Origin: Myxococcales bacterium
GTDB lineage: Bacteria; Desulfobacterota; Binatia; HRBIN30
Direction of reading: 5' to 3'
DNA: 54,252 bases
Assembly: GCA_037445065.1 (NCBI GenBank)
Contig: JBBILD010000025.1
Span: 1 to 54,252, forward strand
Shown here: piece by piece, positions 45,001-48,000 of the stretch
Position numbering within the stretch: the first letter of the stretch is position 1
How the letters are laid out: each line of letters begins with the position of its first letter
Made by a program: the position numbers

Positions 45001-48000
45001 GATCGGCCGCCCCCTCGCCGTGGTCGTATCTACCTGCGGTACGGACTTGCGTTGGGGCGAACGCGTGTTTCTCGCGTGGATTTGCCCGCGCGGGATCGTC
45101 GCTGCTTCGGTAGCTGGCTTGTTCGGCTTGCTACTCGCTGAGAAAGGCGTGGCGGGAGCAACGCGTCTCGAAGCGCTGGTCTTTGTTACCGTGGCCGTTA
45201 CCGTGGCCCTTCAGGGACTCACTGCGCCGCTCGTGGCACGGGTGACCGGGGTCAACTTGCCTTCGCTCAACGGTGCCCTGATCGTAGGCGGCGACTTCTT
45301 TGGCAGGTTGGTGGGGCGCTTGCTGGCCGCGCGCGGCCGACAAGTGGTGATCGTAGACAACAACGCCGGCCATTGCGCGGCCGCACAAAGCGCGGGTCTG
45401 GCAGTGTACCGAGGCGACGCGCTCCAAGCCGACACTCTGGATGCTGCCGGGATCCGGTTCGTAGACACGGTACTGGCCTTGACCCGCAATCTCGAGCTGA
45501 ACGATCTTGTCGCACAAGAGGTGCGAGAGCACTTTCGCATCGAGCGGGTGCTGTCTGTCGGTGCAGCCGCGCAAAGAAACGCCGATCGCCCATTCCCCGG
45601 GCGGCTTCCCCACCTCGATGAGGTGAACGCTGCTTTGCGGCACCGCCGCGCGCGTGTGAGGATATACCGGGTGCCGCGGGCAGTGGCCCGCAGGCTGCTC
45701 GCCGACCTGCCCTTTGCGGACGGTGAGGCGGCGGTGCTGCTCGAACGCCGCGGTCGAGTGTTTGTGGCTCGAGAGAACGAAGTACTCGAAGAGGAAGACA
45801 CCGTCATTTGCCTGCAAACGGAGCCCACCTCGAGTCCGCTCGAGCAGGTCCTGGAACTGGTTGCCGACCAACCCGCAGCTTCTCTGGAAGCGGAGAGCAC
45901 GGCACCGTTGCCGGGGCAACCGCGCGGGATGGAAAGCGGCGGAAGCTAAGGTTGCGGCCCGACACCCCCGTCCAAGACGGTGCCCTAGTTTTCCCGAACC
46001 TCCTATAATCGCCCCTTCTCCGCTTCCGCTCGCCACGCCTTGCCAGAAAGGAATTGAGCAGCGCGCCTCACTCCTGAGGAAGAGGCCCGGCCGGCGGCCG
46101 CTCTCTACCCTCGCCATCCTCCAAGGCGGACTGGTGCGACTGGGGCCCGTTGGTCAGGGCCACGTACAGGGAGGGTGGACGTCCTTGCTTCGGAACGCCG
46201 GGGTACAGCGTGAGATGTGGGAAGGGAATCTCGATGCCAGCCTGGTCAAAAGCCTTTTTCAGGCGGCGCAGATACTCCCGCCGCACGTCCCACTGGGAGC
46301 CTGGCAGCACTTTCATGCGTAGGCGCAAGAGTACCGCGCTGTCCTGAAATGCCTCCACGCCTACAACTTCGGGAGCGTCGAGAATGCGCTCGCACCACGG
46401 GCTCTCGTTTGCCATTTCCTGAGCCACCCGCCGCATCACCGCCAGGGCGGTGTCCGGGTCTTCCCGGTAGGCGACCCCGACATCGATTACCGATTGGGCA
46501 AAGCCCATGCTCTTGTTCACCACTGTGGTCACCGACCCGCAAGGTACGAAAATCACTTGCCCGCTGTAGTCGCGCAACCGAACCGTGCGGAGCGTAATTC
46601 CTTCCACGACGCCCGAGTACCCGCCCACTTCGACGATATCGCCGACGCGCAGTTGGCCCTCCAATAGGAGGGCGAAGCCGGAAAAGTAATCTTTCACTAA
46701 GCTTTGTGCGGCAAAGCCAGCGGCAATGCCTGTCACCCCAGCGGCAGTCAGTAGGGGAGCAATCGAAACGCCCAGGATCGACAGAATGCTGATTGCCGCC
46801 ACCGTCCAAATGACAGCCCGCACCACCAGCGTGAGGACGCGCCGAATGGTCTCCACTTGTTTGGCCCCATCGAGATCTGCCTTGGCACGCTTCACTCGCT
46901 CCAGGGCAACTCGAATGGAATGAACCAAGATGGTGCTCGTGAGCAGTGCCAGCCCCACGACCAGTGCGACCCGCAGGGCGTTTGCCGCAAGCTGGATGCG
47001 CCATAGGTTCCAATCGAAAACCGCGAGTTCGCTGCGAATGTTTTGTAGCAATTCCTCCATGCTCCCCTCCTGCGACGGGAATCCTTGCACGATACCAGCC
47101 GCGAACTGCATTTCATCCCGTCCGTGCCCCTCGCCGGACCGATTCTGCAAGACTGTGCGACACGCGATCCGACCGTACAGCCCGCCGCATCGTGGCGTTG
47201 CATCCGTTCGGACCGCCTCCTGCCAGCGGCGAGTGCCGGCGAAAACTGCGCCCGCAAAACCCTTGCCGCCTCGCTTCGCGTTGTGGCAAGTTCGGGCGCC
47301 GTGGCTTACGCGATCCAGCGATGCTGCCTGAGCGGTGTGCTCACGTTCCTCGCCGCGTTCGGGGCGATCCCGAGCAAGTCGCTTGCCCTGCAGATTTTCG
47401 TGCGTCCTCCCAGCGGTGGGACCATCACGTTGGAGGTCGAGCCGAGCGACACGATTGCAATCGTGAAGCAACAAATTCAGGACCGCACCGCGATCCCAGC
47501 CGACCAGCAATGCCTGTTTTTCGCGGGGGCGCCGCTGCCCGATGAACGCACCCTGGCCGAGTTGAATATCCAAAAGGAGTCCCCCTCGAATTGCGATTGT
47601 GCCAGAGCCTCGCGCCCAGCGCTGTGCCGGTAGTCGGTTCTGGCCTCACCCTGGTGCTACCGGTGAGCCTGTTTTTTGTGGCCGCCATTCGCAGCCGGCT
47701 GCCGGGTCGAAAGGCTACCGTGGAGCACTCGCTGCGACACTGATCGAGGCAGCTAGGAACGCGCAGTTCGCACCGCTGCGTTCCGGGGCAGCACGGCTTG
47801 TGGCCTCGGGAACGCGAGGCTGTGCACCTGCTAGCGTGCGCCACACGGGGCTCCCATCGTGGAGCCGCCGCCCTCGGTGGGCCTACCAGCCGGCTCCAGT
47901 TCGAAGCGTCGCCGCGGCCGCGGCGCACCGCACGGAGGACCCGCGACCGCACGTCCTTTCGCCGAGGCGCACGGTCGCCGTCACGGGGAGTGCCAGCGCG

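What a model noticed while it worked through the whole genome (the two positions that open the first line are those of the whole stretch)
47337..47743. Eukaryote-type ubiquitin with signal peptide and C-terminal membrane anchor (frameshifted copy)
C25:47337-47743 (+) encodes a close homologue of eukaryotic ubiquitin (64.6% identical to animal ubiquitin over residues 1-65) preceded by a hydrophobic signal-peptide-like leader and followed, after a 1-nt frame break at 47583/47585 (..NIQKES|LELRLC..), by a short linker, a VPVV motif, one hydrophobic helix and an Arg/Lys tail. The diglycine end (LRLRGG) is replaced by LRLC, so it cannot be conjugated the eukaryotic way; a Cys at this place recurs in 5 of the 8 anchored homologues read (not in the G270 copy, P0015, P0019), the same trait as the C-terminal Cys of BfUbb. 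Intact genes of the same build (leader - ubiquitin - TM helix - basic tail) lie in 3 other genomes of the family HRBIN30 an [...]
Evidence so far: pfam.tsv: g02960 ubiquitin PF00240 68.4 bits, i-E 6e-20, aa 91-153; swissprot.tsv best hits UBIQ_CAMDR etc. 64.6% over 65 aa. Six-frame reading shows the +1 frame continuing [sequence left out]. A 98%-identical 107-aa protein (P0003) reads ..[15 protein letters not shown].. in one frame, i.e. G000 lacks one base; metagenome proteins P0011, P0012, P0015, P0019 have leader+ubiquitin+TM+basic tail. search_genomes over 401 Binatia genomes: G000 and 4 of 25 HRBIN30-family genomes, 0 of 375 others; ORFs in L165, L166, L167 are intact 150-170-aa proteins (G270 copy [sequence left out]). 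Flanking genes on the 54-kb contig are ordinary bacterial genes. No NCBIfam sorting-domain model reaches its cut on the tails. N [...]
(Added by a program. Inside this text positions count along the whole contig: contig position 1 is position 1 of the stretch shown here. "Call 12" and the like, gene names such as g00115 and contig names such as C1 are that model's own, and its searches are not shown. The text may have been shortened before it was handed on; [...] marks where a part breaks off. The agent that wrote the report below was given it as the finding of a first reader that could run no searches.)

Follow-up and report, generated by a model that had tools for sequence, protein, structure and literature searches.

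The report
Broken exported ubiquitin gene in Binatia
An uncultured subsurface bacterium carries a recently broken copy of a eukaryote-type ubiquitin gene refitted for export and membrane or surface anchoring, one example of a widespread and little-described bacterial habit.

Summary
Window 47283/47301-47743 (+) encodes a Sec-type leader, a ubiquitin domain (PF00240, 68.7 bits; 42 of 65 residues identical to canonical ubiquitin), a one-base frame break after residue 65, then a VPVV motif, a hydrophobic helix and a basic cluster.

The break is real in the data. An independent contig of run X1 (depth 17) has it. Sister-strain contigs (X3, X4) carry the missing A but have their own one-base loss before the helix. 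The domain differs only by two synonymous changes, so both inactivations are recent.

The Cys is at ubiquitin position 72, not 76. It always comes with Cys42 (6 of 6 proteins of one clade). These replace Arg42 and Arg72, and I infer a disulfide.

The tail matches no sorting-domain model, including three profiles of my own. However, same-build ubiquitins elsewhere carry model-passing IPTL-CTERM tails in genomes with exosortase XrtH, and this genome has two XrtH-like genes.

At least 562 stretches in bacterial and archaeal species genomes encode such ubiquitins, fused to IPTL-CTERM, LPXTG-like, T9SS, autotransporter or SLH parts. Only BfUbb and BoUbb turned up in print. The scan has met this class before on other DNA.

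The parts
47283..47387 (+). Leader (signal-peptide-like). Possible starts are GTG 47283, GTG 47301 and GTG 47337. Predicted signal-peptidase site is after S-L-A (Ala codon 47385-47387).
   Evidence: Translation shows a basic residue, a hydrophobic core and small residues at -3/-1 directly before ubiquitin residue 1. The same arrangement is seen in 64 of 79 usable related loci. The start is not settled. The two sister-strain changes at 47291 and 47294 fall on third codon positions of this frame and leave the residue unchanged (my reading of the codons), which hints at the 47283 start.
47388..47582 (+). Ubiquitin domain residues 1-65. Cys42 codon is at 47511-47513.
   Evidence: PF00240 at 68.7 bits. 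42 of 65 residues are identical to canonical ubiquitin (sequences). Only 2 substitutions, both synonymous, against the sister strain.
47583..47584 (+). Frame break: two bases (CC) left from the Thr66 codon. Relatives have ACC here.
   Evidence: Contigs of X2, X3 and X4 have an A put in behind 47582. The X1 contig (depth 17) has none. P0003 reads ..KESTLELRLC.
47585..47605 (+). Ubiquitin residues 67-73 (LELRLCQ) in the +1 frame. Cys72 codon is at 47600-47602.
   Evidence: Ungapped alignment of the homologue to ubiquitin. Residue table.
47606..47635 (+). Linker SLAPSA and the VPVV motif (47624-47635; VPVL in the sister strain).
   Evidence: VPxL[T/S] is seen in G014, G020, P0049 and P0050.
47636..47689 (+). 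Hydrophobic helix (GSGLTLVLPVSLFFVAAI).
   Evidence: Mean hydropathy 2.56 in the C-terminal scan. The equivalent segment of the G016 copy is a predicted helix, residues 126-148.
47690..47743 (+). Basic cluster RSRLPGRK (47690-47713), nine more residues and the TGA stop (47741-47743).
47631..47633 (+). TAG that ends the out-of-frame reading (frame 0) 16 codons after the break.
   Evidence: ORF 47085..47633.

Best explanation
The locus is a recently inactivated copy of a bacterial 'exported ubiquitin' gene.

How the intact form would work (seen in G014, G016, P0049 and P0050), each step inferred from sequence:
1. A Sec leader takes the protein across the inner membrane. Signal peptidase cuts right before ubiquitin residue 1.
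2. The ubiquitin fold forms outside the cytoplasm. It cannot be conjugated, because there is no Gly-Gly and Arg42 and Arg72 are both Cys. The two Cys probably form a disulfide that staples strand 3 to the end of strand 5.
3. The C-terminal helix and basic cluster hold it in the membrane.
4. The VPxL-type motif in front of the helix probably marks it as cargo of one of the genome's two XrtH-like exosortases, for release to the cell surface.

The target is unknown. The Leu8-Ile44-Val70 patch of ubiquitin is not kept in this clade. A bacterial or environmental partner, as for BfUbb, is therefore more likely than eukaryotic ubiquitin receptors.

In this genome the loss of one base after residue 65 removes strand 5 and the whole tail, so the gene is most likely dead.
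For: Shown:
- Ubiquitin domain.
- The G016 copy folds as leader helix, beta-grasp (pLDDT about 95) and C-terminal helix. Its best PDB matches are ubiquitin, with TM-score 0.9 or more by target and rmsd 0.5-1.3 A in most top rows.
- The frame break stands in an independent contig at depth 17. Sister-strain contigs have the extra A but lack a base at 47646, which ends their protein exactly as P0003 ends.
- The ubiquitin part shows 0 non-synonymous and 2 synonymous changes between the strains. The 801 bases laid show 44 other letters overall.
- GC is 0.635, like the genome's 0.629.
- Cys42 and Cys72 occur together in 6 of 6 proteins of one clade and in 0 of 11 others tabulated. The clade has support 82/61.

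Bearing on the tail:
- P0073, L045, L070, L073, L083 and L085 are leader-ubiquitin proteins whose tails pass NCBIfam IPTL_CTERM at 28-41 bits against a cut-off of 20.5. L073 also passes Pfam PF18203. L073 is 114 aa by my start pick, the window's build.
- The 5 genomes holding the 5 loci all have XrtH over its cut-off, at 131-245 bits.
- G000 has two XrtH-like ORFs at 81 and 80.4 bits against a cut-off of 86. The C20 copy, the one scanned, passes the exosortase/archaeosortase signature at 53.9 against 23.
- G000 also has a true IPTL-CTERM protein (L009, 29.9 bits). It has choice-of-anchor proteins whose tails begin AVPVW or PVPVA before a helix and an Arg cluster.
- Of 134 G000 ORFs ending in a helix plus basic residues, 11 have [VI]P[VTLM] just before the helix. 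The background rate is 2.2% per window.
Against: - The window's tail hits no NCBIfam or Pfam sorting model.
- My three profiles do not support it either. A profile of 10 ubiquitin tails ranks it 20th of 37,760 C-termini (E 5.5). A profile of 12 IPTL-type ubiquitin tails does not list it among 3,337 hits. A profile of G000's own four VPV tails scores it at -1.1 bits.
- Both XrtH-like genes fall under the curated XrtH cut-off. Such genes occur in 26 of 26 family genomes, whereas ubiquitin occurs in only 6, so co-occurrence says nothing.
- The Cys pair sits in one clade, so it may be shared ancestry and not pairing. I could not measure the 42-72 distance, because model coordinates are not given.
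- The contigs of X1 probably come from the same reads as the window.
- No expression data.
Confidence: 0.5

Rival explanations
1. The tail is only a stop-transfer membrane anchor. The ubiquitin domain stays tethered to the inner membrane facing the periplasm and is never handled by an exosortase.
For: No sorting-domain model and none of my three profiles recognises the window's tail. The tail carries nine residues after the basic cluster. G016's tail has no VPxL motif.
Against: Homologues of the same build carry model-passing IPTL-CTERM tails in XrtH genomes. Elsewhere the ubiquitin module sits on surface-display scaffolds: autotransporter, T9SS, SLH and LPXTG-like. G000's choice-of-anchor proteins have alike AVPV-helix-Arg tails.
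Confidence: 0.3
2. The gene is intact in the organism. On this reading the missing base is an assembly or sequencing error, or a reversible switch.
For: Only a single base is missing. The ubiquitin part shows only synonymous differences from the sister strain. Only contigs were available, not raw reads.
Against: A separately assembled contig at depth 17 has the same sequence. The difference is the loss of an A between C runs (TCC-A-CCC), not a change in the length of one run. The sister strain has an independent frameshift at 47646, fixed in two runs at depth 15 and 10. Four of the five changes after 47646 alter the residue in the window's frame, against one of five before it (my reading of the changed places). 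This fits decay.
Confidence: 0.1
3. It is or was a diffusible antibacterial toxin of the BfUbb kind, released from the cell to attack a periplasmic protein of competitors.
For: BfUbb and BoUbb are leader-plus-ubiquitin proteins without Gly-Gly, with a Cys-dependent intramolecular disulfide needed for activity (passages of PMC11901371 and PMC11467351). The sister strain's frameshift would give a leader-ubiquitin protein without the anchor (P0003). The gene is patchy and lies in a different place in each genome.
Against: The intact forms are anchored, not free. The Cys positions differ (42 and 72 here; BfUbb's Cys is residue 76). No immunity or partner gene is conserved beside it. Activity cannot be tested here.
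Confidence: 0.07
4. It is eukaryotic DNA mis-binned or mis-assembled into a bacterial contig.
For: High identity to eukaryotic ubiquitin. One other Binatia hit (G149) does look like foreign SUMO-type DNA.
Against: It sits inside a 54-kb contig between a MscS channel gene and an HD-domain gene at host-like GC. It has a bacterial leader and tail. It is found in the same place in long contigs of three other runs.
Confidence: 0.01

Closest known systems
BfUbb and BoUbb, secreted ubiquitin homologues of Bacteroides fragilis and B. ovatus (PMC3352274, PMC5705921, PMC11467351, review PMC11901371)
   Same: Eukaryote-type ubiquitin sequence in a bacterium. Signal peptide cut right before residue 1. No Gly-Gly. 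Cys near the end of the fold, with an intramolecular disulfide reported for BfUbb. No E1, E2 or E3 genes beside it.
   Different: BfUbb is a free 76-residue protein with Cys at residue 76 (PMC11901371). Here the Cys are at 42 and 72, and the chain continues into a linker, a VPxL-type motif, a helix and a basic cluster. The phylum (Binatia) and habitat (subsurface metagenome runs) also differ. This copy is broken.
IPTL-CTERM sorting domain proteins (NCBIfam TIGR04174, Pfam PF18203) with exosortase H (TIGR04177)
   Same: Three-part C-terminal tail: short motif beginning [IV]P, hydrophobic helix, Arg/Lys cluster. XrtH-like genes are in the genome. Leader-ubiquitin proteins elsewhere carry true IPTL-CTERM tails (L045, L070, L073, L083, L085, P0073).
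   Different: The window's tail passes neither model nor my own profiles. Its motif is VPVV (VPVL in the sister strain) without the Ser-Glu-Trp-Gly part. G000's XrtH-like genes score just under the curated cut-off.
Exported ubiquitin modules on bacterial surface proteins, noted earlier in this scan on other DNA (e1-2376072, e1-959501, e1-4958427, e1-1165435, e1-2983265)
   Same: Leader directly before ubiquitin residue 1, no conjugation, and a C-terminal part that is a sorting or anchoring device.
   Different: This one is in Binatia and has the Cys42/Cys72 pair. It is the short form (ubiquitin plus tail only) and is a pseudogene.

Membership tests
Ubiquitin family (PF00240) | Profile match over the gathering score | tested here: met
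   68.7 bits against a cut-off of 25.4; 70.6 bits in the six-frame search.
Ubiquitin family (PF00240) | Beta-grasp fold | tested here: met
   Tested on the intact G016 homologue, not the broken window copy. The AF2 core has pLDDT about 95. Foldseek top hits are ubiquitin, TM-score 0.9 or more by target.
Conjugatable ubiquitin | C-terminal Gly75-Gly76, and Arg42 and Arg72 (their role in E1 recognition is recalled, not tested) | tested here: not met
   Positions 42 and 72 are Cys, and positions 75-76 are L and A. The chain continues into a tail.
BfUbb/BUbb-type secreted ubiquitin | Signal peptide directly before ubiquitin residue 1 | tested here: met
   By sequence only: a hydrophobic leader ending S-L-A before LQIFV. 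No signal-peptide predictor was available.
BfUbb/BUbb-type secreted ubiquitin | Free mature protein of 76 residues ending in Cys76, which forms the intramolecular disulfide | tested here: not met
   Cys is at 72, aligned to Arg72. About 45 more residues follow.
BfUbb/BUbb-type secreted ubiquitin | Antibacterial action on a periplasmic PPIase after import | not testable with these tools
   Needs a bench assay.
IPTL-CTERM sorting domain (TIGR04174 / PF18203) | Model score over the cut-off | tested here: not met
   No hit for P0001 at E <= 10 in NCBIfam or at E <= 1 in Pfam. Not listed by my IPTL-type profile.
IPTL-CTERM sorting domain (TIGR04174 / PF18203) | Motif, helix and basic cluster at the C-terminal end of an exported protein | tested here: met
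   VPVV, 18 hydrophobic residues, RSRLPGRK. Nine extra residues follow the basic cluster.
IPTL-CTERM sorting domain (TIGR04174 / PF18203) | Exosortase H in the same genome | tested here: inconclusive
   Two ORFs at 81 and 80.4 bits against a cut-off of 86. The C20 copy passes the family signature TIGR04178 at 53.9 against 23; the C29 copy was not scanned against it.
Pseudogene | Frame break supported by independent data, with intact relatives at that site | tested here: met
   The X1 contig at depth 17 has the break. X2, X3 and X4 have the extra A. Contigs only, no raw reads.

The most novel reading that the evidence does not exclude
Bacteria of many phyla place a near-eukaryotic, non-conjugatable ubiquitin at the mature N-terminus of exported proteins. 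They hand it to whatever surface-sorting device the host owns: exosortase tails, LPXTG, T9SS, autotransporters or SLH. Binatia hold a distinct lineage in which Arg42 and Arg72 (recalled as E1 contacts) have become a disulfide pair. In that lineage the tail would be a new VPxL-type signal for XrtH-like exosortases. The gene is gained, moved and lost quickly, as expected of a weapon or a decoy aimed at other organisms.
Probability: 0.35. Interest if true: 0.8.

Novelty: new variant of a known kind. Interest (0 to 1): 0.55.

Why it matters
Ubiquitin is a signature protein of eukaryotes. The only bacterial copies I found in print are the Bacteroides toxins BfUbb and BoUbb. [quoted passage not shown]

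This locus shows three things:
- The gene also lives in deep-branching, uncultured subsurface bacteria.
- It has been rebuilt there: a Cys pair in place of Arg42 and Arg72, and a sorting-type tail.
- It turns over fast, with two independent frameshifts in sister strains, no shared neighbourhood between copies, and 6 of 26 family genomes carrying it.

The wider survey made for this check links the module to IPTL-CTERM/XrtH sorting in carriers that include a complete Brevundimonas genome. The question of what exported ubiquitin does can therefore be tested at the bench.

Tried and rejected
- translated the wrong frame. It was corrected.
- The search of 1.84 billion representatives with a profile of nine full-length homologues was useless for finding same-build proteins. 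Polyubiquitins filled all 150 rows (59,056 hits at E <= 0.001).
- A word search with the C-terminal half and tail of P0049 found only P0049, P0050 and two ordinary ubiquitin proteins, so the Cys-pair clade stays small.
- Three home-made tail profiles gave no support for the window's tail. One search failed on a bad hmmsearch option and was rerun.
- Synteny: a tblastn of the window's ORFs against 16-kb stretches around the G014, G016 and G020 copies found only the ubiquitin gene itself and one unrelated hit. Neighbours are housekeeping genes, with no E1, E2 or deubiquitinase and no transposase seen.
- The promoter and terminator scan found no promoter-like site and one terminator-like site on the minus strand inside the gene, no more than in shuffles.
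- Co-occurrence of XrtH-like genes with ubiquitin within the family is uninformative, because 26 of 26 genomes have them.
- The paper that reports the BfUbb disulfide and its target is not held. I therefore did not see which residue pairs with Cys76. PMC5705921 has no passage on Cys.
- In X2 a base is left out at 47525 at depth 2.7. This may be an error, and I drew nothing from it.
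Full report
**What is in the sequence**

On the + strand an ORF in frame 0 (47085-47633) contains a hydrophobic leader, read from possible GTG starts at 47283, 47301 or 47337. From 47388 it contains a ubiquitin domain.
- Pfam PF00240 scores 68.7 bits, E 3.7e-19. It is the only such hit in the 3.79-Mb genome.
- Counting the sequences printed, 42 of the first 65 residues equal canonical ubiquitin.
- After ..NIQKES (47582) frame 0 runs into 16 unrelated codons and a TAG at 47631-47633.
- The +1 frame from 47585 reads LELRLCQ, a linker, VPVV, 18 hydrophobic residues, RSRLPGRK, nine more residues and a stop at 47741-47743.
- The leader ends in S-L-A directly before ubiquitin residue 1.

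**Is the break real?**

Only Logan contigs, not raw reads, could be laid (four subsurface-metagenome runs of one study).
- Run X1 holds 0.96 of the words and is probably the window's own sample. Its separately assembled contig (depth 17) is identical across the break.
- Contigs of X3 and X4 (depth 15 and 10; 44 other letters and 13 gap letters over 801 bases), and a short X2 contig, carry an extra A behind 47582. This gives TCC ACC CTC GAA (S-T-L-E) and an open frame there.
- The window has therefore lost the A of the Thr66 codon. That is not a simple run-length slip.
- X3 and X4 in turn lack one base at 47646. Together with 47649 C>T and 47660 C>G, this gives ..GSGPSWC and a stop. That is exactly how P0003, the 98%-identical 107-residue protein, ends.
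- Two sister strains thus carry different frameshifts: one before strand 5 of the fold, the other before the membrane helix.
- Between the strains the ubiquitin part (47388-47582) has only two changes (47498 and 47501), both on third codon positions and synonymous. The flanks are dense with changes.
- In the tail, four of five changes before 47646 are synonymous. Four of five after it alter the residue (my reading of the changed places).
- The gene was under purifying selection until recently and is now being lost in this genus.
- GC of the gene (0.635) equals the genome's 0.629, so it is neither a recent arrival nor a contaminant.

**Relatives in the family**
- PF00240 is found in G000 and 5 of 25 other family genomes, and in 1 of 375 other Binatia genomes searched. 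The one outside hit (G149) is a SUMO-like ORF in a low-GC stretch and looks foreign.
- G014, G016 and G020 have intact leader-ubiquitin-tail genes of 150-170 codons.
- G019 has a 5'-truncated copy of the G020 type.
- G002 has leader, ubiquitin and about 210 further residues without any Pfam hit.
- The copies share no neighbourhood. Their neighbours are housekeeping genes. In the window these are a Na/H exchanger, a MscS channel and an HD-domain protein. No E1, E2 or deubiquitinase and no mobile-element genes were seen.

**The Cys**
- The ungapped HMMER alignment of the G016 protein to ubiquitin and my residue table place the Cys at position 72, aligned to Arg72. It is not at position 76.
- Every protein with Cys72 also has Cys42 in place of Arg42. 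This holds for the window, P0003, P0049, P0050, G016 and G014 (6 of 6). None of 11 other homologues tabulated has either.
- Among the 80 loci only the G016 record has both. L043 has Cys42 alone and L061 has Cys72 alone.
- The five non-redundant rows form one clade in the best tree with modest support of 82/61. The tree is otherwise mostly unresolved, with 17 of 28 inner branches open. I left out P0003, P0098 and P0105.
- The members are only 60-71% identical to each other, apart from P0049 and P0050 at 89%, yet both Cys are invariant.
- Arg42 and Arg72 lie side by side on neighbouring strands of ubiquitin and are contacts for E1. This is recalled, not tested.
- I infer a disulfide in the exported protein. 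I could not measure it, and because all carriers form one clade, shared ancestry alone could explain the co-occurrence.
- BfUbb also depends on an intramolecular disulfide made by its C-terminal Cys (PMC11901371, passage read; PMC11467351, passages read). The primary paper is not held.
- In this clade Leu8, Ile44 and Val70 are not kept. The window has Pro, Phe and Arg there. G020 keeps them and is 92% identical to canonical ubiquitin over 72 residues.

**The tail: evidence against a sorting signal**
- The window's tail matches no Pfam or NCBIfam sorting model.
- It fails three profiles of my own. It ranks 20th of 37,760 ORF ends with a profile of ubiquitin tails. It is not listed with a profile of IPTL-type ubiquitin tails. 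It scores -1.1 bits with a profile of G000's own VPV tails.

**The tail: evidence for a sorting signal**
- It has the three-part build of exosortase signals.
- The metagenome homologue P0073 and five proteins from species genomes (L045, L070, L073, L083, L085) pass NCBIfam IPTL_CTERM at 28-41 bits against a cut-off of 20.5. L063 scores 20.1, just under, and L047 and L081 score lower. L073 also passes Pfam PF18203.
- L073, from a complete Brevundimonas sanguinis genome, is 114 residues by my start pick: ubiquitin, then an IPTL-CTERM tail. My crude start pick gives it only a 9-residue leader. This is the window's build.
- All five genomes behind those loci have exosortase H well over its cut-off, at 131-245 bits. 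None of the 14 control genomes does.
- G000 has two XrtH-like ORFs, C20:26546-26995 and C29:25283-25735, at 81 and 80.4 bits against a cut-off of 86. The C20 copy, the one scanned, passes the exosortase/archaeosortase signature.
- G000 has one true IPTL-CTERM protein (L009).
- G000 has choice-of-anchor proteins (L012, L014, L015, L017) whose tails start PVPVA or AVPVW before a helix and an Arg cluster.
- Of 134 G000 ORFs that end in a helix plus basic residues, 11 have [VI]P[VTLM] just before it, against 2.2% per random window. Seven of the eleven are these exported proteins, one is the ubiquitin tail, and three look spurious.
- I rate exosortase handling of the intact protein at about 40-45%, and membrane anchoring by the helix at about 85%.

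**The wider class**
- A scan of one genome per bacterial and archaeal species found at least 562 stretches encoding relatives.
- Of 79 usable loci (L057 dropped because my ORF pick failed), 65 have a hydrophobic leader. In 64 of those 65, small residues stand at -1 and -3 right before ubiquitin residue 1. Seven of the 79 keep Gly75-Gly76.
- Of the 63 complete ORFs, 14 end in a helix plus basic residues and 13 end in Phe or Trp. Start codons were picked crudely.
- Where tested, the C-terminal parts are choice-of-anchor U plus IPTL-CTERM, a T9SS tail (L100), LPXTG-like ends below the cut-offs (L053, L067), the autotransporter beta-domain (6 of 10 tested, including Pseudomonas putida and Limnohabitans records) and SLH repeats in a Paenibacillus.
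- This agrees with earlier notes of this scan on other DNA.

**In print**

My searches in the held library were: BfUbb (28 papers), IPTL-CTERM (1), ubiquitin with exosortase (9, none relevant by title), ubiquitin with Binatia (1, irrelevant by title), 'eukaryotic-like ubiquitin' (91; the 15 listed are about BfUbb, archaeal Urm1 or defence systems) and ubiquitin with choice-of-anchor (2, irrelevant by title). I found only BfUbb and BoUbb as bacterial eukaryote-type ubiquitins. Subscription journals are mostly not held, so this is not proof of absence.

**Verdict**

The reading as an exported, anchored, non-conjugatable ubiquitin is right. The copy in this window is a recent pseudogene. The Cys belongs to a 42/72 pair and is not a BfUbb-like end. 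The tail is probably, but not demonstrably, an exosortase-type sorting signal.

Noticed in passing
L023:1486-1746 (-) (G149:C4): The only PF00240 hit in 375 Binatia genomes outside the family is a SUMO-like ORF ending in ..QTGGY, inside a low-GC stretch. It is probably eukaryotic DNA in the bin.
   Followed up: partly
L005:1411-2346 (+) (G002:C80): Leader plus ubiquitin, followed by a Pro/Thr linker and about 210 residues with several Cys and no Pfam or NCBIfam family. This is a different architecture in the same bacterial family, on a 4.2-kb contig.
   Followed up: partly
L006:1318-1713 (+) (G019:C35): A 5'-truncated copy of the G020-type gene. Only ubiquitin residues from about 46 on, plus the tail, remain behind unrelated sequence. 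This is a second decayed copy in the family.
   Followed up: partly
P0071, P0083, P0093 (metagenome proteins, 103 aa): Ubiquitins with a twin-arginine-like leader (..TRRNIL..) that end in an intact LRLRGG. They are exported yet keep the diglycine.
   Followed up: no
G000 C20:26546-26995 (-), C29:25283-25735 (+), C12:36147-37265 (+), C22:1-414 (+): The genome has two small XrtH-like exosortases just under the curated cut-off, one true IPTL-CTERM protein and one tail passing MYXO-CTERM (21.3 against 20). Several tails (AVPVW.., IPVIPSP..) fit no model. Every one of 26 family genomes has 1-4 such exosortases.
   Followed up: partly
L045, L070, L083, L085, L102: A recurrent architecture in Proteobacteria: leader, ubiquitin, choice-of-anchor U domain, then an IPTL-type tail. 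L102's tail passes no model.
   Followed up: partly
L037, L038, L054, L074, L080, L084: Leader-ubiquitin proteins in which LRLRGG is kept but lies inside a longer exported protein. The carriers are labelled Conexibacter, Verrucomicrobiales, Oscillospiraceae and Bacillota.
   Followed up: no
window 47146-47155: The sister strain (X3, X4) lacks 10 bases here, in the spacer between the divergent MscS gene and the ubiquitin gene.
   Followed up: no
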